NCBI GenBank assembly: GCA_002922725.1
Contig: PNEW01000004.1
Span: 1 to 51,090 of the forward strand
Reading direction: 5' to 3'
From: Verrucomicrobia bacterium Opi.OSU.00C
Lineage (GTDB): Bacteria; Verrucomicrobiota; Verrucomicrobiia; Opitutales; PNEW01
DNA: 51,090 nt
In this document: one piece after another, positions 3,251 through 21,952 of the stretch
Layout of the letters: each line of letters starts with the position of its first letter
Numbering within the stretch: position 1 is the first letter of the stretch
The notes under the pieces: model-generated
Databases searched by the model: none
What the model was told of the DNA's origin: nothing
The model's input: the letters and a program-made list of their open reading frames with translations, nothing else
Program-made: the position numbers and the translations under genes

Positions 3251-3543
3251 GTGGGTGGGATAAGAGGGGGTTACGGTCGCGGAAGAGGTGACAGTAAATC
3301 CTAGCATATCGGCGAGAAGCCAGAGTTGACGCATAGCGAAACCTTTGGATAGCAAATTATAAGATCCCTCCTGAAGAAGCGGGGATATGACATTTTTTAA
3401 AATCTAAATCTAAATAATCTCCATTAAACACCTCTTTATCTGTGCCCCTTTAGGAATTAGATAGTAATCCATATTCTTTCTACCATCTATCGCGGTAGGA
3501 CTAAACCGTATCACCGTAAAGGTGAAGCTTCGCTACTCTCCTC

Positions 3544-4602
3544 TTACAAACTGTAAGTTTCCGGCCAATTACGTGAAGCGGCACCACGCGTGACATACAA
3601 TTTACCCAGGGTTGGCTCTGCTATGACGACGGCTGTCGTAAGTCCGATGTCACCAACATGTCGTTCGATACTGTCGGGAAAGTCGGTGAAATCACAAAAG
3701 CTGCAGTAAGCTAATTGCGCAGTCAATCGACCGTTGTTAGGTTCCAGATTCTTACGTAACATACTTTCACGCATGAGTGAATTTTCACGGGTAAACTGCC
3801 CGAAATTTTCCGTCTTTGCCAAGCGTTTATTTGAGACAACACAATTCGCATGGGTATATATTCCACGCTTGGGTTTAAGAACACCAATTCCATAGGGCGT
3901 GATTTCAATTCCCGCTATCCCACCCTTCTCATCGGCAACTGTACAGTGAGCACACAATTCAATCCGAAATTGTTTTGTAAATTCTATAACCTCTTCCACA
4001 CACGAACAATGCAGGGCAATCAATCCCCAAGCCGCATAAGGCAGGTCACCATTGGGATTATCAACGTAGAGTGCATTGCGAAAAATTGAACAACGACCTT
4101 GAATAAATCCGTGTCCAAAAAGCCACCCCGGGTAGGTAAGCGTTAATGCCGATGGTGCGTTACTCATTTTCATGCGCAGCACTTGGAATTGAAACTGTCG
4201 AAATGCATCGGTGTCTTTAGATTGACCCGAAATCGGGATGCCGTCGAGTGATGCAGTAGGTTGTATCGCAAAAGAAGTGCACGCGTTATCTTCTACGTGA
4301 CCGATTGTTCCTATCTGATTTTCATTTAAGCCCGACCCTTTTGCCATTCCGAGAAATACATCAGGAATGTGAGGTATATATTTATTTATGAATCGGTTGA
4401 ATTTTTTATTCTTCCACCACGGAATTGAATCGGGAACAATCCGACTCGCCCTAAGCTGCAAAGACTCCTGCCAGGCGTAACCGAGCATGACACCGCATTC
4501 GGATGCCGTCCCCTCGACATCAATCAACGGTACTTTACCTTGTGAGTATTCGCGATGATCTTTGATCTTACCCATATCACTATTTGAAAACATCTTCTCC
4601 AT
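3544..4602 (-). CDS. Peptidase C45 family autoproteolytic Ntn-hydrolase/acyltransferase
   Basis: Autocleavage site NA|CTSF about 108 aa in, followed by GQSKD and HANC motifs typical of the isopenicillin-N acyltransferase-like family. Confidence 0.75.
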   Translation of the reverse strand: MEKMFSNSDMGKIKDHREYSQGKVPLIDVEGTASECGVMLGYAWQESLQLRASRIVPDSIPWWKNKKFNRFINKYIPHIPDVFLGMAKGSGLNENQIGTIGHVEDNACTSFAIQPTASLDGIPISGQSKDTDAFRQFQFQVLRMKMSNAPSALTLTYPGWLFGHGFIQGRCSIFRNALYVDNPNGDLPYAAWGLIALHCSCVEEVIEFTKQFRIELCAHCTVADEKGGIAGIEITPYGIGVLKPKRGIYTHANCVVSNKRLAKTENFGQFTRENSLMRESMLRKNLEPNNGRLTAQLAYCSFCDFTDFPDSIERHVGDIGLTTAVVIAEPTLGKLYVTRGAASRNWPETYSL

Positions 4603-5656
4603 CCGTCAACCAGGATAAATCAAAACTGGTTAAAGTAATTTTCTCGTAAGGGTGAGCCTTTCCACATTCATGAAAACAGGCAATTTCACCCTCAGGTAAA
4701 ACTGCTAGATCGGAATAGGCAGAAGGGCCTTCATGGATCAATTTTGATATCACCCAAGATTCACCCTCGTCATAGCTGAGCCTGATCGTCATCTTTGCCC
4801 GATCCGTTGTGCTGGCTGGATTACTAAAAAGTATCCTATCTCTATCTTGGTGAGTAGCATTGGTATAACGAATTATACTTCCCTGGCAAATCGGCTCAAT
4901 AAGGGTTAAATCCCTTTTCAAAGGACCCCAAGTTAAACCACCATCATTACTGATAGAAACGACACGTGTATTTTTGCTTCGATCGAAATTACGCATATTG
5001 AGCATGATACTACCGTTCGCAAGTTCCACCGCCTGACATTCATTCACTTGATCAAAAGGTGTCCTTCCGCCCAATTTCCAAGATAGGCCATGATCGTCTG
5101 AATAAATCACATGGGAATAGTATTTCAAAGTATCAGCCTCTATATGGTCGCAGGGTATTATAAGACGATCTTTATATTCTCCCTTATGAATTTGGATTCC
5201 TTTACATGGTCCAGTGGCATACCAAGTCCACTCAGGTTTCTTAACAGTCGTGGTTATCTCTTTTGGCATTTCCCAAGTCAATCCATCATCATGGGATGAG
5301 GTTACAAATACTCGACGAGTATCATCGCTTATTTGGGTTATGATCTCATTCTCATAATCAGTTCCAAGGTTCCAGGTCATTAACAACCAAATTACCCCTG
5401 TCTCTTTATCTAAAACTGGACAAGGATTACCACACACATTCGCAGTATCGTTCCATATTACCTGTTGTTTACCCCAGGATTTACCACCATCTTCAGAACG
5501 TCTAACAAGCATATCAATATCCCCAGTATCACCTCTACCTGTCTTACGTCCCTCACAGAACGCCAAAACTGTTCCTTTTTTAGATAAAACCAACGCGGGG
5601 ATTCGATAGGTATGATAACCTTCACTACCACTTATATATAAATCAATCTGTTTCAT
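4580..5656 (-). CDS. Exo-alpha-sialidase (GH33), no signal peptide
   Basis: YRIP motif, five Asp boxes (SEDGGKSW, SHDDGLTW, SDDHGLSW, SNDGGLTW, SYDEGESW), catalytic-type NE, NMR and SAYS motifs. Confidence 0.9.
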   Translation of the reverse strand: MKQIDLYISGSEGYHTYRIPALVLSKKGTVLAFCEGRKTGRGDTGDIDMLVRRSEDGGKSWGKQQVIWNDTANVCGNPCPVLDKETGVIWLLMTWNLGTDYENEIITQISDDTRRVFVTSSHDDGLTWEMPKEITTTVKKPEWTWYATGPCKGIQIHKGEYKDRLIIPCDHIEADTLKYYSHVIYSDDHGLSWKLGGRTPFDQVNECQAVELANGSIMLNMRNFDRSKNTRVVSISNDGGLTWGPLKRDLTLIEPICQGSIIRYTNATHQDRDRILFSNPASTTDRAKMTIRLSYDEGESWVISKLIHEGPSAYSDLAVLPEGEIACFHECGKAHPYEKITLTSFDLSWLTDGEDVFK

Positions 5657-5840
5657 TGTTTTGTATCTTTTTAATACGTTATTTTAAATAACCAAAGTAA
5701 AATAAATATTAAGGTAAAATATAATTAATTATAGAAGGTAGATATATCGGTAGCTTAAAGAAAAACCGTAATAACAATAAAGCCAGTAATCCGACCGTAC
5801 TATTCAACTAACAAGAATATATATACTGTGGATAAAGTAA

Positions 5841-6482
5841 TTACGTTGGAAGAAGTGAAACGAGGTCGGTATGGGGTCGAGCAATTACGTGCGATGCAAT
5901 AATTGTACCTAATTCATTAACTGCTTCTTTACCTGCGTCAACTGCCGCTGTGACTGCAGCAACGTCACCTTTAATTACCACGGTGACATAAGCAGCTCCT
6001 ATTTTCTCTTTTCCAACAAGTGTTACATTTGCAGATTTTAACATTGCATCTGTCGCTTCTAAAGCTGCGACAAGTCCTTGCGTTTCCAAGAATCCTAAGG
6101 CATGTTGGTTATTTTTCATATTTTGTTTCTGTGTTATTTTATAATCGCTTGGTAAAAATTGTTCACGTGCTCCATAAATAGGATTAATCGTATTAGGATA
6201 ATCAACCGCCTTATCAAACCCACTTGCCGGTGAAGGAATAACACTGCTAATTACTTCTACACCCAATTCATTGCCAAAATCAACTGCAGTCTGCAGTGAA
6301 GAGTTGACATCTGACACATCACCGGCAACACGTATTAATATATTTTCAAGAGCTGTAGTATCTAGCCCCAGTAGCTTAACTCCAGACTCTTTCACCATCT
6401 TATCTGCCACCACTGCGCCAATACTCCAAAAAGAAACCTCGGCAAAGCCCAAGGCAATTACCTCTTCATATGATTTTACCAT
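5841..6482 (-). CDS. Bacterial microcompartment shell protein with two BMC domains (divergent N-terminal, canonical PduA/EutM-like C-terminal)
   Basis: C-terminal [44 protein letters not shown]-terminal [22 protein letters not shown]. Confidence 0.92.
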
Positions 6483-6504
6483 AGTAAAATTACTTTAAAC
6501 CAAA

Positions 6505-7557
6505 TTATATTTTACCAAGATTGCGTAATACTTCATCTACAATTTTATCCACATCAATAACATTACGAGAAGACCCCTGTTTATCAGCTAGTGTTGTCCC
6601 TACAAAAGGCTGAACGAGGTCAGCCCTAGATTTTTGACAATTACTCGCCGCCTCCTCAAATCCACATTCCGTAAGAAGGCAAGCAACTTTTGAACGTATA
6701 TTACCCAATTCTTCTTTTTCACGTGATGAAAGCACATATCTGGAACTACCCATATTGAAACCTCTTAACTCGTATCCTATGCGAAACCCATGGGGAAAAT
6801 CGGGAGCATAAAGCATGGTATTGATGAGATCTAAAAGTTTAAACTGAATTCGTTTTGCTTCATCAAGTTCACCTGAAAGAAAACAATTGTATAGCTTCAT
6901 TACAGCTTCCGGAACAACTCCAGAAGTTGCTATTGTCCCACCATCTCCTCCCATAACAAGTGTTGGATATAGAATTTCCTCACAACCCACGAGAATACTA
7001 AATTCAGGTCGTTGGGGTTTAATTTCATTCAAGGTATTAATAAAACGAGGCATATCACGACTACTATCTTTAATTCCGATAATATTGGGGCAATCCAAAG
7101 CTAAGCGCCTAACCACTGGGACACTTATTTCATTAGAAAACTGAGGGATATTATACATGACGATCCCAATCGGAGATTTAGCAGCAATTTCCCTAAAAAG
7201 TTCCTCAATACTTTCTTGGCTAACATTGTAATAATAAGGACCAGTAACAGAAACAGCCGAACAACCATAATCCGCGTAGGTTTCACAGGCTTCCAGAATC
7301 ATTTCCACATTTGCTTCTGCACCACCTGCGAGAATAGGGACTCGTCCCTTTACCTCACTACTCATTATTGCGATTATTCTCTTACGTTCTTCAAAGCTGA
7401 GGCGAATAAATTCTCCTGAACTCCCATTGGGATAAAGCCCAGAGACTCCTTTATCAATAAGCCAATTAGTCTGTCTACGTAGTTCATTCTCATTTATTTT
7501 CCCTTCTTCGTCAAAAGGAACAATATTAGGAACAAATATACCTTCAATTTTACTCAC
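6505..7557 (-). CDS. DapA/NanA-family class I aldolase/lyase with C-terminal encapsulation-peptide-like extension
   Basis: GSSGE, PYY, YNIP and Schiff-base IGIKDS motifs. Lacks the DapA-specific Arg (YNIPQF vs YNVPSR). The tail ends in IDVDKIVDEVLRNLG. GTG start. Confidence 0.85.
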   Translation of the reverse strand: MSKIEGIFVPNIVPFDEEGKINENELRRQTNWLIDKGVSGLYPNGSSGEFIRLSFEERKRIIAIMSSEVKGRVPILAGGAEANVEMILEACETYADYGCSAVSVTGPYYYNVSQESIEELFREIAAKSPIGIVMYNIPQFSNEISVPVVRRLALDCPNIIGIKDSSRDMPRFINTLNEIKPQRPEFSILVGCEEILYPTLVMGGDGGTIATSGVVPEAVMKLYNCFLSGELDEAKRIQFKLLDLINTMLYAPDFPHGFRIGYELRGFNMGSSRYVLSSREKEELGNIRSKVACLLTECGFEEAASNCQKSRADLVQPFVGTTLADKQGSSRNVIDVDKIVDEVLRNLGKI

Positions 7558-7756
7558 CTTGCCTAAGGTACAAATTGTCGAGACCGCAAGTAAAGCTTTA
7601 TTGTTAAAAATTGTGCAAACTTCAGAAACTTTTCAGTGATAAAAATGACTTTCAATTAACAGTTCACATTCCTGTATGGTAGATTAAATTTCTTCGGAAT
7701 TTATTTCAATGCAAGAAAACTAGATAAGATTGAACCTAGAGAATTACTTAGCTCTA

Positions 7757-7999
7757 CTAATCAGTTAATTCGTAACGATAATCCTCGATAATCGGATTAC
7801 TCAATAAGTCATAGCAGAGCTTATCAATTGAAGCTCGAAAACTAGGACTATCATCACCTTGGATTTCAAATTCTATGGTTTTTCCCACACGAACATTTTT
7901 CGCCTGCACATACCCAAGACTTTTCATTGCCTGCCCGACTGCAGTCCCTTGAGGATCAAGAACATTCTTTTTAGGTATAACGTAAACGATGACTTTCAC
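7757..7999 (-). CDS. purS: Phosphoribosylformylglycinamidine synthase subunit PurS
   Basis: 80 aa with VLDPQG, VRVGK and LLSNPIIEDY motifs. Confidence 0.95.
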   Translation of the reverse strand: MKVIVYVIPKKNVLDPQGTAVGQAMKSLGYVQAKNVRVGKTIEFEIQGDDSPSFRASIDKLCYDLLSNPIIEDYRYELTD

Positions 8000-8070
8000 T
8001 CAGTTTAATTTAGATGTGGAAATTAAAAGATTTCAATGAAAATGAGTGAAAAAATGTTAACCATAATATA

Positions 8071-9348
8071 TCATAAATTTATTTTAATTCCACGTCGAAG
8101 ATATGTCGGCACGTCAAGGTCTTCACCTTCATAGAAATTTCGTTCAGTTTTATTGAATTCTCCTCTTTGTTCCTCATCACTAGAAAACATAAATTCAACC
8201 TGATTATCTTTTGTATTATTTAGATCATTAATTTTAGATTTATGAACAGCAGGGGGATAAAGCTCCATTTTCCGTTTTCTTGAGGTTGGGTTCTGGGTAT
8301 GTTTCATGGAGTTGAAAGCAGGTTTTACTGATGGGTAACGTCTTCTTATGCCGTCCAGATTTGTCGTACCCAGTACTGTTATGCTCAACTTTTGTTGCAT
8401 ACTCTCATCAATATAAGCACCCAAAACAATATTATCTTTACTCCCAAATTGTTCACCGACAACCGTCATGATCTCATTTATTTTATTCATAGTAAGATCA
8501 GTCCCACCATAAACATTTACAATTAATGAGTCTGCGCGTTTTGAAAATTCTGGTGTATGTAGTAAAGGACAAAGCCTTAGATCATCAAAAGCTTTATCGA
8601 CATAGTTGTCACCTTCACCATAACCAAGACCAAAAAGAGTCTTTCCTCCTCTATCTTCAAAAGCGTTTCTCAATGTAGAAAAATCGACATTTATAAGACC
8701 AGTCCTTTTTATCATTGACCAAATAGAATGCACACCACGGTAAATCCATTCATCTGCAAGAGTAAATGCATCGAGAACGGTTGCACTATCATCAACTTGC
8801 TGTAGAAGAATATCGTTAGGTAGTGGAATAACCGCATGACACAAATCCCTCAATTGCGCAAGACTCTCCTCTGCTTGGTTATGCCGGCGAATTCCTTCAT
8901 TTGTAAATGGTAATGTAACAAAAGCGATAATTAGGGCTTTCTGATTTGCAGCTATCTCTGCGAGAACAGGTGCTGCCCCACTGCCTGTTCCTCCTCCTAA
9001 TCCAACAATTAAAAAGACTAGATCAATTCCGTTAACGAGCTGAAGTAATTGATCTTTATCAAATTCTGCCGCACGCTTACCTATATCGGCGTCGCCACCA
9101 GCACTTAGACCACGGGTGATCTCACGCCCAATCATAACTTTATCCTCGATAAGCGAGTTACTTAAAACTTTACTGTCAGTATTAACTACCGCTAGGTCAA
9201 CTTCATCGAGATGATCCAGTTTAATCCGGTCAACTGCGTTATTGCCAGCCCCACCAATACCAATGATTTTTATCCGGATCATTTCATCATTTACCTGACC
9301 ACTGAACATTTTATTTGGATTACTAAAATTTTCGCTTTCGCTATGCAT
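8071..9348 (-). CDS. ftsZ: Cell division protein FtsZ
   Basis: IGIGGAGNNA, VNTD, GLGGGTGSG tubulin signature, PF..EG, C-terminal DLDVPTYLR. Last gene of the dcw cluster. Confidence 0.96.
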   Translation of the reverse strand: MHSESENFSNPNKMFSGQVNDEMIRIKIIGIGGAGNNAVDRIKLDHLDEVDLAVVNTDSKVLSNSLIEDKVMIGREITRGLSAGGDADIGKRAAEFDKDQLLQLVNGIDLVFLIVGLGGGTGSGAAPVLAEIAANQKALIIAFVTLPFTNEGIRRHNQAEESLAQLRDLCHAVIPLPNDILLQQVDDSATVLDAFTLADEWIYRGVHSIWSMIKRTGLINVDFSTLRNAFEDRGGKTLFGLGYGEGDNYVDKAFDDLRLCPLLHTPEFSKRADSLIVNVYGGTDLTMNKINEIMTVVGEQFGSKDNIVLGAYIDESMQQKLSITVLGTTNLDGIRRRYPSVKPAFNSMKHTQNPTSRKRKMELYPPAVHKSKINDLNNTKDNQVEFMFSSDEEQRGEFNKTERNFYEGEDLDVPTYLRRGIKINL

Positions 9349-9355
9349 AATACGA

Positions 9356-10566
9356 TTATAAGTTAAATATATTGGCTACTTTACTAAATATTCCTGATTT
9401 CTTTAAACCCTGATCCTCTTTATTCTGGGCTGTTAGACCATAGTAAAGTAGCCCCAAAACAGTGCTGTATTCTGGTTTACGTAAATCGTTCCTCACCCAG
9501 GAAGGGTTATCACCCACCCGGGTAGACACCCCTAATCGCAGTGATGCTGCATCGGCGATTTTTGGTAAACGTGACACCCCTCCCGTCAAAATCACACCAG
9601 CTGCTAATTCTTCAGGGTTTAGGAATTCGACAAGCTCTTTTTTAACGATTCCAAAGAGCTCATCTATTCTTGCTTTAAGTATTTGATAAATTGCTAAACG
9701 AGATATTGCGCGATCACCAATTGTCAAGTCACCGAAGAGCCAAACTTTATCATCTTTATCTTCATTATCAATAATCGCTTTACCAAATTCTAATTTGAGT
9801 TTCTCTGCCTGTTGTTTATTTACACGCAATCCCAAACTTAAGTCGTTTGTCAGGTGATCACCCCCAACACTTATTACTCCCGTCCGCACAATATGTCCGT
9901 TGTTGTAAAGCAAATAGTCCGTAGTGCTACAACCAATATCTAAGACAAGTACACCATTTTGTTTTTCCTCTTCACTCGTAACCATGCAGCCTGAAGCAAT
10001 ACTTGAAATTATCATATCCTCAACTTTTAAACCAAACCCATTAATTACATGGATATGATCACTAACCTTTCTTTCATCTCCTTCTATATGCCAATAAGTA
10101 ACATTTAATTCGTCACCTTCCATCTGATGTGGGTCTTTAATCGATCTTCCATCTAATTGAAAACCACACTGTACATGATGTATATAAACGCGTCTGGGAG
10201 GTAGCTCCTTACGCTTGGCATTTTCTATTACACTTTGGACATCACTCTGGCGAACAAGATTATCAGGCGAACTAACCATGACAGATCCTTTATTCGAAAA
10301 ACCTTGGAGGTGTCTTCCAGTTTGAGCAAGAAATACTCCTTCAATTATAGCCCCTGCATTTTTTTCCGCTGCGATGATCGCAGCATGAGTACAATCACTC
10401 GCAGCACGAAAATCAATTATTTCACCTTTTCTTACACCCATCGCTGTAGACTGCCCCATCCCAATGATATTGAGACTTCTTCCTTCATCGATAATTTCAC
10501 CAACCATTACGACGACTTTCGCCCCCCCCCTATTTCAACTGCACCAATGATTCTATTCTCGTTCAT
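9356..10566 (-). CDS. ftsA: Cell division protein FtsA; 5' end interrupted by a frameshift in a G9 run (intact ORF 9356..10507)
   Basis: GVRKG, VLDIG, GGDHLTNDL, AEKLK, LTGG. The upstream frame from ATG 10566 reads MNENRIIGAVEIG and shifts at 10522-10530 into AKVVVMVGE. Confidence 0.9.
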
Positions 10567-10595
10567 AATTGGGTTGTAAGTTTATTTATTTATAT

Positions 10596-11534
10596 TCAAT
10601 TTCTAAACTTTCTCGGGCCAATATCCCGATATAATTGTACTGCAACTTCGTCTTTTACCGAGAGATCAATACGTTTAATATTATAGATATCGTTGCTTTT
10701 GGAGTATTTTATAACGCGAGCTAATTGAGCTAATTGCCGATCAAAATCAAATGGAGCAAATATTATTTCACGCACAATACTACTTCGTACTTTAATAAAT
10801 TCATCAGACAAGCCATTAAGTTCATCGAATTCTTTACAAGAAACTACCTCCCATGACTTAAATATGTTCGGATAATTCAATTTTGCTAAATCCAATAGTT
10901 GTGAAATTATTTCTATCCCAGAAAGAGAAAAGATGTGATCGCCATTCTGTTTGAATCGAACTCCATCTAAATAAGGTAAATGTTTGTTTTTTGTTATTTT
11001 ATAGCTCTCGTGAAAATATACTGTCCCATCCCTAGCGATGTAAACTTCCTCTATTTTCTTTTTATTCCTTCGGACTCTAGCACGTAATACAGGCTCTCTT
11101 TCTATAACCTCAATATGCAATTCATCTGGAAACTTTCGTGAGACCACTGCAGAATTTATCTGTCCTTTCTTTTCCAACATTTGTTTGATCGCAAAAATAT
11201 CTACCTCCATAATTGTAGCATCCTGTGGCCATGCGATATTTTGTTCGAACCAATGGTGATCTAACTCTCCATTACTTTGAAAGTTAATACGGCGCACAGG
11301 AGCAGAGGTACCAGCAAGAATTATCTGGTTATCATTTGAGCGGAAAAAGTGAACACTATAAGCAATACCTCCAGCCATAAATAAAATTATAATAATGACA
11401 CCACACATTTTAGCACGCCCAAAAATTTTACGTTTGCGAGCTATTGTGCTGACCGCTTGTCGACCAGCTGTTTGCTTAATTCCACGCCAATTTCTAGTCT
11501 CTATACAACTTGATTTAATTTTTGCCATGATCAA
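10596..11534 (-). CDS. ftsQ: Cell division protein FtsQ/DivIB
   Basis: Basic N-terminus, single TM helix, POTRA-like V.RKFPDELHIEVIEREP, C-terminal IDLS. Lies between ddl and ftsA. Confidence 0.85.
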   Translation of the reverse strand: MIMAKIKSSCIETRNWRGIKQTAGRQAVSTIARKRKIFGRAKMCGVIIIILFMAGGIAYSVHFFRSNDNQIILAGTSAPVRRINFQSNGELDHHWFEQNIAWPQDATIMEVDIFAIKQMLEKKGQINSAVVSRKFPDELHIEVIEREPVLRARVRRNKKKIEEVYIARDGTVYFHESYKITKNKHLPYLDGVRFKQNGDHIFSLSGIEIISQLLDLAKLNYPNIFKSWEVVSCKEFDELNGLSDEFIKVRSSIVREIIFAPFDFDRQLAQLARVIKYSKSNDIYNIKRIDLSVKDEVAVQLYRDIGPRKFRN

Positions 11535-12457
11535 TTGCTTCGCAAAGCGTAAAACCTATTTATTGCAGGTAAAACTAGACTTTGGGCCAATTGAGGAAAA
11601 TCATATCCCAGACAACAGGCACTTTTACGTAAGAGGCTTGTAGAAGTAAGACCAGGAAGAGTATTTATTTCTAGAAAATAGCTTCCCTCACTATTCGAAG
11701 TCATAAAATCAACACGGATAAAATCACGGCAACCGCAAATGTCAAAGACAGATTCAGCGACTTCACGAATTTCTTTCTCCAATGAATATCCAAGTCTAGC
11801 AGGGTAATGATATTCTGTCATTCCTTCTGTATACTTGTGTCTGTAATCATAAATACCATTTTTGGGGATTATTTCTACCAAACCCATTCCTTTTCCCTCA
11901 AGTACCCCAATTGAAATTTCTCTTCCTTGAATCCTCTGTTCAAAAAGCCAATTTCCTGAAATAAGTTTGGCCATTTTTTTATTGAGAGCTTCCTCATTTT
12001 CAGCAATGAATACATCTATACTACTCCCCTCACACAAAGGTTTAACTACGATATTACTACCAAGTTTAGCTACTACTTCGTTCACAGTTGGTAAATTAGG
12101 GGCTGTCGCTAATAAATCTTTGGCAACACGTATGCCAGAATCTGCTACAAGCGTTTTTGTTTCTTTTTTATTAATACACAAACGACTCGATTCAGAATCA
12201 CAGCCAACATAAGAAAATTTCTCCTTTTCTAACAATTTTTGTATCTCCCCATCTTCACCAAAAGTTCCATGCAAAGTTAAAAAAATAATCTGATTGTCAG
12301 GATCAAGATTTTTTGGAAGAGCCATTTCATTTAATTCAATGAGATCAACAGAATAATTCTTTTTTAATGCAGCTGTAACTGCCTGACCGGATTCTAATGA
12401 GACATTACGTTCTTTTGAAATACCTCCAGCCAAAACAGCGATAGAAAGATTACTCAT
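11531..12457 (-). CDS. ddl: D-alanine--D-alanine ligase
   Basis: GGISKERNVSLESG, LHGTFGEDG, EGSS, YDYRHKY, RVDF, LEINTLPG. Confidence 0.95.
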   Translation of the reverse strand: MSNLSIAVLAGGISKERNVSLESGQAVTAALKKNYSVDLIELNEMALPKNLDPDNQIIFLTLHGTFGEDGEIQKLLEKEKFSYVGCDSESSRLCINKKETKTLVADSGIRVAKDLLATAPNLPTVNEVVAKLGSNIVVKPLCEGSSIDVFIAENEEALNKKMAKLISGNWLFEQRIQGREISIGVLEGKGMGLVEIIPKNGIYDYRHKYTEGMTEYHYPARLGYSLEKEIREVAESVFDICGCRDFIRVDFMTSNSEGSYFLEINTLPGLTSTSLLRKSACCLGYDFPQLAQSLVLPAINRFYALRSN

Positions 12458-14775
12458 AGTACTTCATTCCAATTTTTGCCCATAAGAAGGACTTCAGGTT
12501 CGAGATCAAATCCTCGATTAGCCTTTACCTCTCTTCGTATGTCTTTTATTAATGAAATAATATCTTTACTCGTTGCTCCACCACGGTTAATAATAAAATT
12601 ACCGTGAAGCTTTGATATTTGAGCTGCCCCAATCTTCCTCCCCTTGAGGCCTAATTCATCAATAATCTGCCCTGCATAAGACCCCTCAGGATTTTTAAAG
12701 ATACACCCAGCGCTTGGTTCACGAGGTTGGCTACTTTTTCGGATACTTGAAAACGACTTAATTTTATTTTTAATAGTTATTTCTTCCGCACTTGAAGTTG
12801 CATGTAAAGTCGCCCCTATCGCAACTGTATTTTTAAGCTCTTCGCATGCCCGATAGCTAATATGAACATCTTTGCGTTTTATATTTTTTAATTCTCCTTC
12901 CCATGTAACTAATTGAATTTCATCTACGATATCAAATATCCATCCACCCATCGCACCAGCATTCATTCGAAGTGATCCTCCTAAAGTCCCTGGTATCCCT
13001 TCGAGGAATTCAAATCCCGTTAGACCTAATTTTATACCTTCAACACAAATTTTATTCAATCGCACTCCTGCTCCTACCCAAATCCGACCATCACCTAATG
13101 GTCGGATTTGTTTCCAGTAATTATGGTTAAGGCGAACGACTAAACCTTGAAACCCCTCATCAGGAACAATTAGATTAGAACCTCTACCAATAAAATATAC
13201 TTGAATTTTATTTTTATTTGATTCGTTTAAAAGAACTCGTAAATCTTTCTCAGACGCCGGTTCTGCATAATAGCGTGTGTTCCCCCCAACTTTTAAGGTC
13301 GTTTTATTAGCAAGTGATTCAAAATCAGCTATTTTTGTTTGCTTATCCATTTTATGTGATAAATCGATCCACCATTTTCCATCTTTACTCATTCTCTGTT
13401 TACAATTAATCACTTTTGGGGACTTATTTTTTATTATCGCGACAACCGCTTTGGCCCATTCATTTATGTCGCCTGCTCCTACAAAAAGCAAAACCGAAGG
13501 ACCTTTTAATTTACGTTCAAGGTTGTTGCTCAATTCTTCTATCGAATTAACTATTCTACCTCGTGAAACATTTGGGAGAAGTGTGAGCAAATCAATACTT
13601 GTCCCACCTTCACAAGGACTCTCATTAGCCTCGTAGACATTAAGAAGATAAATTACATTCGCTTTTTTCAAGACTTCAGCAAATTCCTTTTTATAGTAAA
13701 GTGTTCGTGAATAGCGATGAGGCTGGAAAACAATAATTATTTGATTGTCTGGGTAGTCCTCACGAATGAACTTTAATAGAGATCCTATCTCTTCAGGGTG
13801 ATGCGCATAATCTTCAAAAATAGTTAATTGAGAACTACTATAAAGGATAGTCTGTCGACGTCTTATACCTGGAAAGAGTTCAAGTGATTGCTTATTAAGA
13901 TGTGTCGTCAAGTAGTGCGTTACGGCTAATGCTCCCAAGGCGTTGATCGCATTAAAATAACCGGGCACAGGTACCGACACTTCACATTTAGAGAAACGAC
14001 CACTTAATTGTAATGATAAATTTTTACGACTCTGTCGTACAATTTTACCAGCATAATCTCCATCTTTACCGAAACTTAACCGTTCAGCCGTAATATTTCT
14101 CTGAGATATTTGTCCTAAATATTTGTAGTCGGTCGGTAAAAACACAGATTTTTCAGTCCGCTGAAAAAGCCGTCCAAAAGTATTTTCTAATTCATCTAGA
14201 TTGCGATATTGATCAGGATGATCCCAATCTAGATTTGTCGTTAGCGTTATTTCAGGTGAAAATTCATTTATTGTTCCATCACTTTCATCGATTTCAGCAA
14301 TAATCCATTCACTTCCACCATCAAACTTGGCAGGCAAGTAGTAATTGCCATTAAATAATGCTCCTAAAATATAACTAAATTTAAATCCCTCTTTTTCCAA
14401 AGCAGCTATAAGCATACCTGAAGTTGTCGTTTTACCGTGGCTACCCACTATTGCGATAAGTTTTTTATCAGCCACCGTATTAGCCAACATAACCCCTCGC
14501 TTCAATATAGGCAGTCCACGTTCAATTGCTACACGATAACAAGGGTGGGCTTCATTAATCGCACTTGAATAAATAACTGTATCAATGTCTTTCGAAATTT
14601 CAGGCTCTGACTCTATACTAATATCATTGTTCATTAGCAGATTTGAAATCGGGTTACTAATATTATCATCGTAACCACTAATTTTATGACCACCACTCTG
14701 CAAATAAAGAGCTAAGGGAGCCATCCCCATACCGCCAATTCCTATCATATAAATATTTTTACTTTGCTCGTTCAT
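12454..14775 (-). CDS. murC: Bifunctional UDP-N-acetylmuramate--L-alanine ligase / UDP-N-acetylenolpyruvoylglucosamine reductase (MurC-MurB fusion)
   Basis: MurC motifs IGIGGMGM, GSHGKTTT, EIDESD, DYAHHP. MurB motifs TTLKVGG, GRGSN, GIPGTLGG..MNAGA, GCIFKNP, HGNF, LEPEV. Confidence 0.93.
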   Translation of the reverse strand: MNEQSKNIYMIGIGGMGMAPLALYLQSGGHKISGYDDNISNPISNLLMNNDISIESEPEISKDIDTVIYSSAINEAHPCYRVAIERGLPILKRGVMLANTVADKKLIAIVGSHGKTTTSGMLIAALEKEGFKFSYILGALFNGNYYLPAKFDGGSEWIIAEIDESDGTINEFSPEITLTTNLDWDHPDQYRNLDELENTFGRLFQRTEKSVFLPTDYKYLGQISQRNITAERLSFGKDGDYAGKIVRQSRKNLSLQLSGRFSKCEVSVPVPGYFNAINALGALAVTHYLTTHLNKQSLELFPGIRRRQTILYSSSQLTIFEDYAHHPEEIGSLLKFIREDYPDNQIIIVFQPHRYSRTLYYKKEFAEVLKKANVIYLLNVYEANESPCEGGTSIDLLTLLPNVSRGRIVNSIEELSNNLERKLKGPSVLLFVGAGDINEWAKAVVAIIKNKSPKVINCKQRMSKDGKWWIDLSHKMDKQTKIADFESLANKTTLKVGGNTRYYAEPASEKDLRVLLNESNKNKIQVYFIGRGSNLIVPDEGFQGLVVRLNHNYWKQIRPLGDGRIWVGAGVRLNKICVEGIKLGLTGFEFLEGIPGTLGGSLRMNAGAMGGWIFDIVDEIQLVTWEGELKNIKRKDVHISYRACEELKNTVAIGATLHATSSAEEITIKNKIKSFSSIRKSSQPREPSAGCIFKNPEGSYAGQIIDELGLKGRKIGAAQISKLHGNFIINRGGATSKDIISLIKDIRREVKANRGFDLEPEVLLMGKNWNEVL

Positions 14776-20537: not shown

Positions 20538-21952
20538 GCTTCCATTTCCCTTATAGATTCCTCCGCTCTTGAGAGGGGAATTAATTTTTCCAACTTATAG
20601 ATACGACTGCCTTTAAGGAATACCGCTCCTTTAAATTCGCTTACGCTATCGCGAATATCTTCTATTGAATCTAATACACTCACATCGCTTGTCTTACCTC
20701 CTGAAAAAAGTATACCATCACGCATTTCACATGCATAATCTCCCAAGATTAAAACTCTATCTTTGGGACGTAATTTCAACAGCTGTCCAACTTCATAATG
20801 AAGATCATGTGCCTTTTCTCCGAGTTCAGCCATACAACCAAGAATATAGAGTCGTCGCAAAGCTGGTTTCATTATAGAATTAAAAGCATAAAGACTATCC
20901 GCCATTGAGGCAGGACTCGCATTATAACAATCAACATAAAAATATTTCTCTTCGCGGTATACAATTTCACCGCGAAGGGAAAGAGGATGCCAACTGGAAA
21001 GTCGATCTTGAATATCCACATCATTCATGCCCAGTCTCCAAGCTATTGCGATCGATAAGCTGGTATTACCAACCATACCTCGACTAAGAGTTGGAAGATC
21101 AAAGTTATGAACTTCACCTGATGAAGCATTTAGTCTAAGTACCGACTTTTCCTCCGGAAATACTGGTTGCTTTACTGACCAATAAAGATACTTATTTTTA
21201 TTTTTTATGAGAGTCTTAGTTCCGTCTTCAGGAAGAAGGATAATAGAAGTAGCTGGAAATTTTTGGAAGTCACTAAATTCGCTGCATTCTTTATTAAAAA
21301 CGACGCAACCGTCCGTACGTGTGTGGTAACCGAGCATAGCTTTTTCATGAGCAATACTTTCAATCGAGCCAAAAGCCTCTAAGTGTGTGTTCGATACCAT
21401 GGTAATAATACTCTCGGTAGGATCGATCATTCGGGAGAGCAATTCAATTTCACCTGGTGCGTTCATTCCGACTTCAATAACCACAAAATCGTGATTTTGT
21501 GGATCAATTTCAAGAAGAGTTAGAGGGACTCCAAGATAGTTATTATAATTTTCGCGATTACGATGGACTTGGGTATCGCCTAAAAGAAGAGCGAGGAGTT
21601 CTTTAGTTGAAGTCTTGCCACAACTGCCAGTTACACCGATAACAGGCCCGTGGAATTCCTGTCGGTGATGAGCGGCCATTGTATGAAGTGCCTCTAGTGG
21701 ATCTTTTACTAGCAGTTGTGGCAGGGGAAAGTTTAACCTTAAACGAGAGACTAATGCGCCACTAGCATTAGCATTTTTAGCTTCAACGAGAAAGTCATGC
21801 CCGTCACGGTTATCAGTTTTTAAAGCAACAAAAAGTTCTCCAGCTTGTAGCGTTCTGGTATCACACGAAAATCCAGATATGGTTAATGGAAATCCTGATT
21901 TCCACTCACCAGAGGTCCACTTCTGTAACTTTTCTGGATCAAAATTAGGCAT
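20531..21952 (-). CDS. murF: UDP-N-acetylmuramoyl-tripeptide--D-Ala-D-Ala ligase
   Basis: DTR, DGHDF, TGSCGKTSTKE, NNYLGVPLT, EVGMN, DCYNASP, KGSR. Confidence 0.95.
   Translation of the reverse strand: MPNFDPEKLQKWTSGEWKSGFPLTISGFSCDTRTLQAGELFVALKTDNRDGHDFLVEAKNANASGALVSRLRLNFPLPQLLVKDPLEALHTMAAHHRQEFHGPVIGVTGSCGKTSTKELLALLLGDTQVHRNRENYNNYLGVPLTLLEIDPQNHDFVVIEVGMNAPGEIELLSRMIDPTESIITMVSNTHLEAFGSIESIAHEKAMLGYHTRTDGCVVFNKECSEFSDFQKFPATSIILLPEDGTKTLIKNKNKYLYWSVKQPVFPEEKSVLRLNASSGEVHNFDLPTLSRGMVGNTSLSIAIAWRLGMNDVDIQDRLSSWHPLSLRGEIVYREEKYFYVDCYNASPASMADSLYAFNSIMKPALRRLYILGCMAELGEKAHDLHYEVGQLLKLRPKDRVLILGDYACEMRDGILFSGGKTSDVSVLDSIEDIRDSVSEFKGAVFLKGSRIYKLEKLIPLSRAEESIREMEAC

What the first reader, a model, noticed from the sequence alone, without database searches (positions are those of the whole stretch)
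3544..7557. Satellite bacterial microcompartment locus: encapsulated DapA/NanA-type aldolase + tandem BMC shell protein + sialidase + C45 hydrolase
Seen: four co-oriented genes. A class I (Schiff-base) aldolase with an encapsulation-peptide-like tail sits 22 bp upstream of a two-domain BMC shell gene, followed by a GH33 sialidase and a C45 hydrolase. There is no aldehyde dehydrogenase, phosphotransacylase, acetate kinase or BMC-P pentamer in the window. Known: Planctomycetes/Verrucomicrobia (PVM) metabolosomes degrade fucose/rhamnose through lactaldehyde, and their signature enzyme is a class II aldolase. DapA/NanA-family enzymes cleave 2-keto-3-deoxy sugar acids (Neu5Ac, KDG, keto-deoxy-fuconate/rhamnonate) to pyruvate plus an aldehyde. 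Inference: this is a plug-in module that adds a new signature enzyme, and a shell subunit with its own pore, to a BMC encoded elsewhere. It could route a non-phosphorylated keto-deoxy acid or a nonulosonic acid into the organelle. Linkage of the sialidase is less certain because of a roughly 185-bp AT-rich gap.
Basis: partly seen in the sequence, partly recalled or inferred. Interest (0 to 1): 0.85.

Follow-up and report, generated by a model that had tools for sequence, protein, structure and literature searches.

The report
Second aldolase module for fucose microcompartment
A marine Opitutales bacterium carries, away from its main fucose/rhamnose microcompartment genes, a conserved gene pair (an aldolase with a targeting tail plus a double-domain shell protein) that probably gives the organelle a second, sugar-acid entry route; the neighbouring sialidase and C45 genes are lineage-specific bystanders.

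Summary
The four co-oriented genes are at the stated coordinates. The aldolase (6505-7557, minus strand) belongs to the DHDPS/NAL family but is neither DapA nor NanA; the true DapA lies on another contig. Its C-terminus has a disordered linker and then the most amphipathic helix in the protein. That helix resembles the N-terminal peptide of this genome's own microcompartment aldehyde dehydrogenase. The next gene, 22 nt on, encodes a tandem, non-permuted BMC shell protein without cysteines. A complete PVM-type main locus lies on contig C18.

The tailed aldolase forms one clade across Verrucomicrobiota and Planctomycetota. A tandem BMC gene sits beside it in 46 of 73 assessable loci. All 27 tail-bearing genomes in a 401-genome order sample have BMC vertex genes. 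The one orthologue in a BMC-free genome has lost the tail.

In other lineages the pair sits in operons with L-fucose dehydrogenase, a fuconolactonase-like enzyme and L-fuconate dehydratase. It is therefore most likely a 2-keto-3-deoxy-L-fuconate-type aldolase that makes pyruvate and L-lactaldehyde inside the shell. The sialidase and C45 genes occur only in this family and are not part of the module.

I found no main-text description of this; paper supplements were closed.

The parts
6505..7557 (-). DHDPS/NAL-family class I aldolase, 350 aa, GTG start. The putative Schiff-base Lys163 is encoded at 7069-7071.
   Evidence: PF00701 188.6 bits. Below the DapA and NanA cut-offs. K163, Y135 and G45/S46/G48/E49 are invariant in 20 of 20 aligned orthologues. 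K163 aligns with the IGIKD motif of E. coli YagE. AF2 model: mean pLDDT 86.6.
6553..6636 (-). Poorly conserved linker (residues 308-335) between the catalytic barrel and the terminal helix.
   Evidence: Variable in length and sequence across 30 aligned orthologues. pLDDT below 50 for residues 311-333.
6508..6552 (-). C-terminal amphipathic helix (residues 336-350), the predicted encapsulation peptide.
   Evidence: Predicted helix at 336-346. The highest 14-residue helical hydrophobic moment in the protein: 2.45 against a mean of 0.92, sd 0.44, over 337 windows. Conserved in 28 of 30 rows. Resembles the N-terminal peptide of this genome's AldDH.
6483..6504 (.). 22-nt spacer between the aldolase stop and the shell-gene start.
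5841..6482 (-). Tandem BMC shell protein (BMC-T, non-permuted single-layer type), 213 aa, no cysteine. Domain 1 is at 6228-6455 and domain 2 at 5874-6101.
   Evidence: PF00936 twice, each matching profile positions 1-75. Best NCBIfam match is CcmO, 112 bits against a cut-off of 270. Best PDB match is 6ner, a BMC-H tandem fusion, 156 bits; PduT scores only 64.7. In 47 aligned orthologues, domain 2 is strongly conserved, domain 1 is divergent and no Cys is conserved.
5657..5840 (.). AT-rich 184-nt gap between the module and the sialidase gene.
   Evidence: GC 0.239. Only one weak terminator-like hairpin, at 5796-5781. No indel in independent contigs.
4580..5656 (-). Sialidase-like BNR_2 beta-propeller, 358 aa, without an N-terminal extension. 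A neighbour, not part of the conserved module.
   Evidence: PF13088 126.4 bits. Found next to the pair only in the same genus and family. The sister copies have a hydrophobic N-terminus.
3544..4602 (-). C45-family autoproteolytic acyltransferase/hydrolase, 352 aa, overlapping the sialidase gene by 23 nt. A neighbour, not part of the conserved module.
   Evidence: NF040521 93.6 bits against 85. Found in 4 of 401 order genomes, all family f1.

Best explanation
Genes 6505-7557 and 5841-6482 form a two-gene satellite module of the PVM (Planctomycetes-Verrucomicrobia) metabolosome, whose main locus lies on contig C18. The aldolase is a class I (Schiff-base) DHDPS/NAL-family enzyme. A C-terminal encapsulation peptide takes it into the shell. 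There it most likely cleaves a 2-keto-3-deoxy-6-deoxyhexonate, with 2-keto-3-deoxy-L-fuconate the best candidate and the L-rhamnonate analogue possible, into pyruvate and L-lactaldehyde.

The core enzymes of the main locus then process the lactaldehyde: acylating AldDH, then PduL, then acetate-kinase homologue. This is the same fate as lactaldehyde made by the resident class II aldolase. The co-encoded tandem BMC-T would add a pseudohexameric tile with its own pore, presumably for the anionic sugar acid and/or pyruvate.

Shown here: the family assignments; the anatomy of the tail; the existence of the main locus; conservation of the pair; co-occurrence with BMC genes; and the fucose-oxidation gene context in relatives.

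Inferred, not shown: actual encapsulation, the substrate, and what the pore does.

Rough odds: module plus encapsulation about 0.85. The substrate being a lactaldehyde-yielding 6-deoxy sugar acid, given that, about 0.7.
For: 1. Main locus. C18 carries PduL, BMC-H, BMC-H, acetate kinase, BMC-H, BMC-P, AldDH, BMC-P, BMC-P, class II aldolase and an Ldh/Mdh-type gene, in that order.

2. Tail anatomy fits the published definition of an encapsulation peptide: 15-20 aa, an amphipathic helix, and a poorly conserved linker (passages of PMC4594438). Here residues 311-333 are disordered and 336-346 are helical. The helix has the top hydrophobic moment in the protein. Its pattern, IVDEVLRNLG, is close to VVEDVLKRLG at the N-terminus of this genome's AldDH.

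3. None of six other DHDPS paralogues in the genome has such a tail.

4. Order sample of 401 genomes: 29 have an orthologue. The tail is present in 28 of the 30 aligned rows. All 27 tail-bearing genomes are among the 173 that are PF03319-positive. G249, 99% complete, has no PF03319 or PF00936 match and carries a tail-less orthologue. That orthologue is nested inside the tailed clade as sister to L094, support 100.

5. A tandem BMC gene lies next to the aldolase on the same strand in 15 of 29 order loci. Among the best 80 GTDB loci it does so in 46 of 73 assessable ones: 45 downstream, 1 upstream. These include 5 of 16 loci titled Planctomycetota. The two locus sets overlap in part.

6. Gene context in relatives.
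- G273 (L042): UxaA-like dehydratase, L-fucose dehydrogenase equivalog (NF052481, 360 bits against 300), MFS transporter, Amidohydro_2 lactonase (its only NCBIfam hit is L-fucono-1,5-lactonase, and its only PDB hit is 4dlf), then aldolase, BMC-T and a sulfatase.
- G375 (L041): SDR, an enolase-superfamily dehydratase whose best PDB hits are L-fuconate dehydratase 2hne/2hxt/1yey (349 bits, full length), SSF transporter, lactonase fragment, aldolase, BMC-T.
- A lactonase or dehydratase homologue lies within 6 kb in 29 of 80 loci.

7. The aldolase route of the non-phosphorylating fucose pathway (L-KDF to pyruvate plus L-lactaldehyde) is described in print (introduction of PMC11199699).

8. The class I enzyme is an addition, not a replacement. 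The PVM class II aldolase orthologue is present in 25 of 26 other tail-bearing genomes.
Against: - In the window's own lineage the supply pathway was not found. There is no L-fucose dehydrogenase over cut-off in G000, G425, G447 or G464. The best L-fuconate-dehydratase-like hit is only 37% identical, in G425 and G447, and none was found in G464. The neighbours of the G425 hit are unrelated genes. tblastn of the relatives' pathway proteins against G000 gave nothing at E <= 1e-30 except a partial match on C88. G000 is only 2.05 Mb, against 4.5 Mb for the same-genus genomes.
- 51 of 80 loci have no recognised lactonase or dehydratase within 6 kb.
- The BMC-T is not obligatory. 27 of 73 assessable loci lack it. 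G138 and G033 have only three BMC-domain matches each, all in their main-locus region.
- No sequence comparison with a characterised L-KDF aldolase was possible: the paper was not held and I had no sequences.
- There is no expression or proteomic evidence.
- The genomes compared are kin, so the co-occurrence counts overstate independence.
- In this assembly two main-locus genes are frame-broken.
Confidence: 0.62

Rival explanations
1. The module and encapsulation are as in the best explanation, but the substrate is a different 2-keto-3-deoxy acid. Examples are KDG or KDGal, giving glyceraldehyde, or a keto-deoxy-pentonate, giving glycolaldehyde. The module would then feed a different aldehyde to the PVM core. 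This is most plausible in the window's own family, where no fucose-oxidation operon was found.
For: The nearest solved relatives by sequence include the KDG/KDGal aldolase YagE (115.6 bits) at the same distance as DHDPS entries. No equivalog model is reached. One relative (L101) has a galactonate dehydratase equivalog next to the pair (332.3 bits against 311). The genome has 19 MR_MLE_C and 14 Amidohydro_2 matches, so many sugar-acid routes exist. No fucose dehydrogenase or close FucD was found in family f1.
Against: The neighbours that could be assigned are fucose-specific: the FucosDh equivalog in L042, with 56-64% identical copies in L136, L145 and L152, and the FucD-like dehydratase. The PVM core is documented to act on lactaldehyde (passages of PMC4207490).
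Confidence: 0.2
2. The C-terminal helix is not an encapsulation peptide. It would be, for example, an oligomerisation or regulatory element, and the aldolase works in the cytosol. The neighbouring BMC-T would then be a shell-permeability variant that is co-regulated for other reasons.
For: Encapsulation was not tested. 27 of 73 assessable loci lack the BMC-T. The conserved Cys-containing segment before the linker shows that the extension has features beyond a plain encapsulation peptide.
Against: All 27 tail-bearing genomes have BMC-P genes, against 173 of 401 overall. The tail is lost in the BMC-free genome G249. The helix is similar to the AldDH peptide of the same genome. The linker-plus-helix anatomy fits the definition.
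Confidence: 0.08
3. The four genes form one sialic-acid (nonulosonic acid) utilisation operon. The sialidase releases the sugar acid, a NanA-like lyase cleaves it, and the compartment takes part.
For: The order aldolase, BMC-T, sialidase, C45 is kept in all 4 genomes of family f1. The window's sialidase has no signal-like N-terminus.
Against: - The aldolase is below both NanA cut-offs (144.1 against 281; 123.6 against 382).
- Sialidase and C45 are next to the pair in only 3 of 80 loci, all same genus or family. C45 occurs in 4 of 401 order genomes.
- The sister sialidases carry a hydrophobic N-terminal stretch.
- A 184-nt AT-rich gap separates the shell gene from the sialidase gene.
- From general knowledge, Neu5Ac cleavage yields N-acetylmannosamine, which is not a likely substrate for an acylating AldDH.
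Confidence: 0.05
4. The aldolase is the housekeeping dihydrodipicolinate synthase (DapA), and its position after the dcw cluster reflects cell-wall precursor supply.
For: The Pfam family name, and its position directly after ddl-ftsQ-ftsA-ftsZ. The FtsZ-aldolase adjacency also occurs in G445.
Against: It scores 143.5 on TIGR00674 against a cut-off of 206.15. A paralogue on C163 scores 357.6. In the tree the tailed clade is separated from all five own paralogues by a branch of length 0.9, support 99.
Confidence: 0.01

Closest known systems
PVM metabolosome (Planctomycetes-Verrucomicrobia microcompartment for L-fucose and L-rhamnose; Erbilgin 2014, recalled; Axen 2014, passages read)
   Same: The main locus on C18 has the described content: class II aldolase PF00596, AldDH, PduL, acetate kinase, an Ldh/Mdh-type dehydrogenase, three BMC-H and three BMC-P genes. 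The module occurs in the same two phyla.
   Different: The described signature enzyme is the class II aldolase alone. Here a class I DHDPS/NAL aldolase with its own targeting tail and a dedicated BMC-T are added from a distant locus. The substrate would be a non-phosphorylated sugar acid, and the co-product pyruvate rather than DHAP.
'EUT module' satellite loci of HO, SPU3 and SPU6 microcompartments (Sutter 2021, PMC8217296, section 'Satellite loci', passages read)
   Same: The logic is the same: a satellite locus carrying an extra signature enzyme plus a BMC-T. The authors read this as extending the main compartment to an alternative substrate, with the BMC-T easing entry.
   Different: The enzyme differs (EutABC, B12-dependent lyase, against a class I aldolase). 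The shell type differs (permuted EutL type against non-permuted tandem). The host compartment differs. The aldehyde made here is the same one the host compartment already handles.
[quoted passage not shown]
   Same: The proposed reaction is the same (L-KDF to pyruvate plus L-lactaldehyde). In relatives the operon partners are the same: fucose dehydrogenase, fuconolactonase, fuconate dehydratase. That the characterised enzymes belong to the DHDPS/NAL family is recalled, not seen in a call.
   Different: The characterised enzymes are, as far as I recall, cytosolic enzymes of anaerobes with no link to a compartment. Here there is a C-terminal encapsulation peptide and a shell-gene partner. Sequence relatedness was not tested.
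E. coli YagE (KDG/KDGal aldolase) and bacterial DHDPS structures such as 4xky
   Same: These are the nearest solved sequences, 115-117 bits over residues 4-251. The GSxGE, YNxP and IGIKD motifs align.
   Different: They have no C-terminal extension and no compartment link. All known subfamilies lie at a similar distance, so function cannot be transferred.
PduT and CcmO (tandem, non-permuted BMC-T proteins)
   Same: Two canonical PF00936 domains in one chain. CcmO is the best full-length NCBIfam model.
   Different: The scores are far below both cut-offs (CcmO 112 against 270; PduT 52.5 against 250.3). There is no cysteine, so no PduT-type Fe-S site (the PduT Fe-S site itself is recalled). The family has its own conserved inter-domain linker motif.

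Membership tests
DHDPS/NAL class I aldolase superfamily (PF00701) | Match to PF00701 above the gathering score | tested here: met
   188.6 bits against 22.1, residues 4-285.
DHDPS/NAL class I aldolase superfamily (PF00701) | Schiff-base lysine, the Tyr of YN(I/V)P, and the GxxGE motif. The roles of these residues are recalled. | tested here: met
   K163, Y135-N136-I137-P138 and G45/S46/G48/E49 are invariant in 20 of 20 orthologues. They align with YagE IGIKD, YNFP and GSGGE.
DapA (4-hydroxy-tetrahydrodipicolinate synthase) | Score over the TIGR00674 equivalog cut-off | tested here: not met
   143.5 against 206.15. The paralogue on C163 scores 357.6.
NanA (N-acetylneuraminate lyase) | Score over the NF003164 or TIGR00683 cut-off | tested here: not met
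   144.1 against 281, and 123.6 against 382.
[quoted passage not shown] | Clustered with L-fucose dehydrogenase, fuconolactonase and L-fuconate dehydratase | tested here: inconclusive
   Met in relatives (L041, L042, L102 and others). A lactonase or dehydratase homologue lies within 6 kb in 29 of 80 loci. Not met in the window or in family f1.
[quoted passage not shown] | Cleaves L-KDF to pyruvate plus L-lactaldehyde; sequence kinship with the characterised enzymes | not testable with these tools
   Needs an enzyme assay.
BMC encapsulation peptide | Terminal helix of 15-20 aa, amphipathic, joined by a poorly conserved linker (definition in PMC4594438) | tested here: met
   Helix at 336-346; pLDDT below 50 for 311-333. 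Top hydrophobic moment of 337 windows. The linker varies in length and sequence while the helix is conserved.
BMC encapsulation peptide | Extension present on BMC-associated homologues and absent from non-BMC homologues | tested here: met
   All 27 tail-bearing genomes have PF03319 matches. The tail-less orthologue is in the BMC-free genome G249. Six own paralogues have no tail. One exception: G297 has BMC genes and a tail-less, divergent (46% identical) copy.
BMC encapsulation peptide | Sufficient to target cargo into shells | not testable with these tools
   Needs a reporter fusion or compartment proteomics.
BMC-T, non-permuted single-layer type (PduT/CcmO-like) | Two PF00936 domains in one chain, each in canonical order | tested here: met
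   Both domains match profile positions 1-75; two stretches.
BMC-T, non-permuted single-layer type (PduT/CcmO-like) | Forms trimers (pseudohexamers) that tile into the shell | not tested
   No oligomer model or experiment was made.
PduT subfamily | Pore cysteine that ligates a 4Fe-4S cluster (recalled); TIGR02526 cut-off | tested here: not met
   The window's protein has no Cys. No Cys is conserved among 47 orthologues. 52.5 bits against 250.3.
Satellite BMC locus (definitions of Axen 2014 and Sutter 2021) | Only one shell-protein family at the locus, distant from a main locus that has both BMC-H and BMC-P | tested here: met
   The window has PF00936 only. The main locus is on C18. Definitions were read.
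PVM-type main locus | Class II aldolase PF00596, AldDH, PduL, acetate kinase, Ldh/Mdh-type dehydrogenase, and BMC-P genes at least as many as BMC-H genes | tested here: met
   Caveat: the third BMC-P and the Ldh-type gene are frame-broken in this assembly. Both are intact in G464.
Sialidase (BNR_2 / GH33-like) | Six-bladed propeller family match, Asp boxes, RIP motif | tested here: met
   PF13088 126.4 bits. YRIP and five SxDxGxxW-like boxes are visible in the translation. GH33 membership and activity were not tested.
Peptidase C45 / AAT family | Score over the NF040521 cut-off | tested here: met
   93.6 against 85. Pfam AAT 23.8 against 23.2.

The most novel reading that the evidence does not exclude
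The PVM metabolosome is a two-door organelle. Beside the known phosphorylated route (class II aldolase, giving DHAP plus lactaldehyde), many Verrucomicrobiota and Planctomycetota plug in an oxidative route. In that route cytosolic fucose dehydrogenase, lactonase and fuconate dehydratase make L-KDF. The L-KDF enters through the dedicated BMC-T pore and is split inside by the encapsulated class I aldolase. Because this aldolase releases pyruvate in the lumen, the Ldh/Mdh-type dehydrogenase of the main locus could reduce it to lactate and recycle the NADH made by AldDH. The pathway would then be redox-closed inside the shell without making propanediol. This would be the first DHDPS/NAL-family cargo enzyme. 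It would also be a natural case of a signature enzyme that brings its own electron acceptor.
Probability: 0.2. Interest if true: 0.8.

Novelty: new variant of a known kind. Interest (0 to 1): 0.62.

Why it matters
Verrucomicrobiota and Planctomycetota with PVM compartments are key degraders of fucose- and rhamnose-rich algal polysaccharides. Current pathway calls use either the phosphorylated fucose route or the oxidative route ending in KDF dehydrogenase and hydrolase (methods passage of PMC13668718). They treat the class II aldolase as the only PVM signature enzyme.

A widespread hybrid route, with oxidative steps in the cytosol and the aldol cleavage inside the compartment, would change three things:
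- how fucose catabolic potential is scored in genomes;
- the explanation of how lactaldehyde from the oxidative route is contained;
- the known set of compartment cargo, by adding a new enzyme family and a new BMC-T subfamily.

The module is small: two genes, one tail. That makes it a natural template for adding a substrate entry to an existing compartment. Every step can be tested with ordinary enzymology and reporter targeting in cultured carriers.

Tried and rejected
- True DapA: rejected by model scores.
- NanA/sialic-acid operon: rejected on scores and on the lack of conserved linkage.
- PduT-like Fe-S shell protein: rejected because there is no Cys.
- Supply pathway in the window's own lineage: searches for an L-fucose dehydrogenase equivalog, a fuconolactonase model and an L-fuconate dehydratase in G000 and in G425, G447 and G464 gave no clear operon. 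Left open.
- Promoter/terminator scan of 3300-8200: promoter-like sites were at the shuffle expectation (15 against 14.3). Terminator-like sites numbered 9 against 3.6, but most lie inside genes. This gives no basis for operon boundaries.
- Expression: no RNA holder was listed for 3400-8100, so co-transcription across 5657-5840 could not be examined. The DNA contigs laid served only to check the assembly.
- HpcH/HpaI aldolase-cupin ORF near a distant BMC-T in G117: no encapsulation-peptide-like end was seen, and the ORF start is doubtful in GC-rich DNA. Not pursued.
- Complex prediction, fold search, the search for homologous proteins, the search of protein representatives, the listing of cluster members and the protein-atlas search were not used. 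No claim here rests on a specific binary contact or on an unexplained fold.
- Literature: searches found no main-text link between a DHDPS-family aldolase and a microcompartment. So did passages read in PMC4207490, PMC8217296, PMC8857213, PMC12339742, PMC4594438, PMC12388122, PMC13608581 and PMC13668718. Supplements were closed. Supplementary Data 2 and 3 of PMC8217296 hold locus diagrams of all PVM loci and their satellites, and may already show this pair. Erbilgin 2014 and Watanabe 2020 were not held; what I say of them is recalled or second-hand.

Full report
WHAT IS THERE

The window holds four minus-strand ORFs at the coordinates given: 6505-7557 (350 aa), 5841-6482 (213 aa), 4580-5656 (358 aa) and 3544-4602 (352 aa).
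- The first is a DHDPS-family protein: PF00701, 188.6 bits, residues 4-285.
- The second has two PF00936 BMC domains.
- The third is a BNR_2 sialidase-like propeller.
- The fourth is a C45-family protein: weak in Pfam, but 93.6 bits against a cut-off of 85 in NCBIfam.

The spacers are 22 nt, then 184 nt at GC 0.239, then a 23-nt overlap. Upstream on the same strand lies the end of the cell-division cluster (ddl, ftsQ, ftsA, ftsZ). Downstream, convergent, are E1 dehydrogenase subunits. No other metabolosome gene is in the window. Independent metagenome contigs from two studies reproduce the arrangement, with no indel in the AT-rich gap.

THE REST OF THE ORGANELLE

The assembly is 2.05 Mb in 287 contigs, with estimated completeness 82.6%. 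Same-genus genomes are 4.5 Mb. Its other BMC genes all sit on contig C18. The order there is PduL, BMC-H, BMC-H, acetate kinase, BMC-H, BMC-P, AldDH, BMC-P, BMC-P, class II aldolase and an Ldh/Mdh-type dehydrogenase. This is the content described for the PVM locus (passages of PMC4207490). The window's pair therefore meets the published definition of a satellite locus. In this assembly the third BMC-P and the Ldh-type gene are each split over two frames. Both are intact in a same-family genome.

THE ALDOLASE

It falls below every NCBIfam equivalog cut-off: DapA 143.5 against 206.15, NanA 144.1 against 281 and 123.6 against 382. A paralogue on C163 is the true DapA, at 357.6 bits. The nearest solved sequences are a Bacteroides DHDPS and E. 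coli YagE, both at about 115 bits. The GSxGE, YNxP and IGIKD motifs align. K163 and Y135 are invariant in 20 orthologues.

Beyond the barrel, three features follow in order:
- a conserved Cys-containing segment;
- a stretch that varies in length and sequence among orthologues and is modelled with pLDDT below 50 (residues 311-333);
- a helix at 336-346.

That helix has the highest helical hydrophobic moment of all 337 14-residue windows: 2.45 against a mean of 0.92, sd 0.44. This is the published anatomy of an encapsulation peptide (passages of PMC4594438). The helix (IVDEVLRNLG) is close to the N-terminal peptide of this genome's own AldDH (VVEDVLKRLG). PduL and the class II aldolase carry similar N-terminal helices. 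None of the six other DHDPS paralogues in the genome has such an end.

THE SHELL PROTEIN

Both domains match PF00936 in canonical order, so it is a non-permuted tandem protein. Its best full-length model is CcmO, at 112 bits against 270. PduT is far off, at 52.5 against 250.3. The best PDB sequence is an engineered BMC-H tandem fusion. The protein has no cysteine.

Among 47 orthologues, domain 2 is almost invariant and looks like a BMC-H domain, with pore loop KIGAAY. Domain 1 is divergent. No Cys is conserved. The inter-domain linker carries its own conserved motif. A PduT-like Fe-S function is therefore excluded. What passes the pore is not known.

IS THE PAIR CONSERVED, AND IS THE TAIL TIED TO COMPARTMENTS?

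Order sample (401 genomes):
- 29 genomes, counting the window's, have an orthologue at E <= 1e-70.
- I fetched 29 loci from the 28 other genomes. A tandem BMC gene lies next to the aldolase in 15, is not there in 13, and could not be judged in 1.
- The tail is present in 28 of 30 aligned rows. It is missing in L104 (G297, 46% identical) and L105 (G249).
- The same 401 genomes include 173 with BMC-P genes. All 27 tail-bearing genomes are among them.
- G249, 99% complete, has neither PF03319 nor PF00936 matches.

In a FastTree tree of 54 rows, the tailed clade (49 rows) is separated from the five own paralogues with support 99. G249's tail-less copy is sister to a tailed one with support 100, so the tail was lost there. 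These genomes are relatives, so the counts are not independent trials. The pattern is nonetheless what an encapsulation peptide predicts.

The PVM class II aldolase is kept in 25 of 26 other tail-bearing genomes. The class I enzyme is therefore an addition.

The best 80 loci carry titles from many Verrucomicrobiota lineages (Opitutales, Opitutaceae, Lentimonas, Pelagicoccus, Limisphaerales, Chthoniobacterales, Terrimicrobiaceae, Akkermansiaceae, Luteolibacter, Haloferula) and from Planctomycetota. This set overlaps in part with the order sample.
- A strict helix pattern is found in 72 of 80 tails. Five of the eight misses still show the helix by eye, two have a shorter variant and one looks truncated.
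- A same-strand tandem BMC gene within 300 bp is present in 46 of 80 loci, which is 46 of the 73 that have at least 900 bp downstream.

The shell partner is frequent but not obligatory. G138 and G033 have only three BMC-domain matches each, in their main-locus region. In G445 the tandem gene lies elsewhere on the chromosome.

WHAT THE ALDOLASE WORKS ON

The window gives no clue, but relatives do.
- G273: UxaA-like dehydratase, an SDR that passes the L-fucose dehydrogenase equivalog cut-off (360 against 300), an MFS transporter, an Amidohydro_2 lactonase whose only NCBIfam hit is L-fucono-1,5-lactonase, then aldolase, BMC-T and a sulfatase.
- G375: SDR, an enolase-superfamily dehydratase whose best solved relatives are L-fuconate dehydratases (349 bits, full length) and human ENOSF1, an SSF transporter, a lactonase fragment, then aldolase and BMC-T.
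- Copies of the fucose-dehydrogenase type recur in L136, L145 and L152.
- A lactonase or dehydratase homologue lies within 6 kb in 29 of 80 loci.
- Fucosidase-like, sulfatase, GH36 and GH43 genes are further neighbours.

These are the steps that make 2-keto-3-deoxy-L-fuconate. The literature describes an aldolase route from that compound to pyruvate plus L-lactaldehyde (introduction of PMC11199699). L-lactaldehyde is the aldehyde that the PVM core handles.

The best reading is therefore that cytosolic oxidation of fucose feeds a sugar acid into the compartment, where the tailed aldolase releases lactaldehyde. I put about 0.85 on the module-and-encapsulation part. Given that, I put about 0.7 on a lactaldehyde-yielding 6-deoxy sugar acid.

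WHAT SPEAKS AGAINST IT, OR IS OPEN

In the window's own family no fucose dehydrogenase equivalog and no close fuconate dehydratase were found, and the assembly is incomplete. This lineage has very many enolase-superfamily and Amidohydro_2 genes. Another keto-deoxy acid therefore cannot be excluded here. One relative has a galactonate dehydratase equivalog beside the pair. No characterised L-KDF aldolase sequence was at hand for comparison. Encapsulation, substrate and pore function are all inferences.

THE SIALIDASE AND C45 GENES

They follow the pair in all four genomes of this family and nowhere else: 3 of 80 loci, and C45 in 4 of 401 order genomes. In two sister genomes the sialidase ORF begins with a hydrophobic, signal-like stretch that the window's copy lacks. 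Neither protein has an encapsulation-peptide-like end. I read them as a lineage-specific neighbouring pair. The position after ftsZ is shared with G445 but has no evident meaning.

COMPARISON WITH WHAT IS KNOWN, AND NOVELTY

The compartment type (PVM) is known. So is the idea that a satellite locus can add a signature enzyme plus a BMC-T to extend a compartment's substrate range: the 'EUT modules' in PMC8217296. What I could not find in print is this particular module.

Eight full-text searches and passages of eight papers gave no link between a DHDPS-family aldolase and a microcompartment. Recent papers still name the class II aldolase as the PVM signature enzyme. They score fucose catabolism by the two classical pathways only. 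The supplements of the 2021 catalogue, which draw every locus, were closed, so the pair may already be catalogued there without comment. I therefore rate it a new variant of a known kind, with interest 0.62.

Paper supplements were closed. No RNA run was available.

Noticed in passing
G000 contig C18, about 21929-22223 and 23329-24259 (L009 13930-14224 and 15330-16260): In the main PVM locus of this assembly, the third BMC-P gene and the Ldh/Mdh-type gene are each split over two reading frames. Both are intact in the same-family genome G464 (L203 12257-12583 and 13701-14627). Whether this is an assembly error or decay was not decided.
   Followed up: partly
window 6634-6681 (aldolase residues 293-307): Three conserved cysteines sit in a segment 'ACxLxECGFxEAAxxC' just before the linker. 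C293 is invariant; C298 and C307 are at 90% or more in 20 orthologues. They are partly lost in the Planctomycetota copies. I have no explanation.
   Followed up: no
window 6144-6197 (BMC-T residues 96-113): The inter-domain linker of the tandem shell protein carries a conserved motif, 'PNxxNPLYGGRDQxLPxD', across 47 orthologues. This is unusual for a linker.
   Followed up: no
window 5657-5840; L089 12250-13404; L090 7692-8846: The sialidase ORFs of two same-genus genomes start 26 residues earlier, with a hydrophobic, signal-like stretch. The window's copy has stop codons there and starts at the propeller. Independent contigs show no indel.
   Followed up: partly
L092 (G445) 8537-13880: FtsZ is followed by the tailed aldolase, as in the window. 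After that come a 190-aa ORF with no Pfam hit and two transposase genes instead of a BMC-T. This genome's tandem BMC gene lies about 2.7 Mb away.
   Followed up: partly
L043 (G117) 8367-9008 and 11768-13630: A more distant tandem BMC gene (35% identical) lies 2.7 kb from an HpcH/HpaI aldolase-cupin fusion. HpcH/HpaI is the family of class II keto-deoxy-rhamnonate aldolases (recalled). This may be a second kind of aldolase-plus-shell module. No encapsulation-peptide-like end was seen.
   Followed up: partly
G000 genome-wide; G425, G447: The lineage is unusually rich in sugar-acid enzymes. The 2.05-Mb assembly has 19 MR_MLE_C, 14 Amidohydro_2 and 9 DHDPS matches. An enolase-superfamily query gave 49-50 first-look candidates in the 4.5-Mb same-genus genomes.
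   Followed up: no
L117, L118, L128, L156, L136: Contigs carrying the aldolase-BMC-T module bear titles naming Bifidobacteriaceae, Dongiaceae or Hydrogenedentota. These are probably binning or labelling errors rather than true hosts.
   Followed up: no
L009 7639-8616 (C18 15638-16615); L191 17176-18303: An ADP-ribosylglycohydrolase-family gene sits just upstream of PduL in the main PVM locus. Another sits near the FucD-like dehydratase of G425. Its role is unknown.
   Followed up: no
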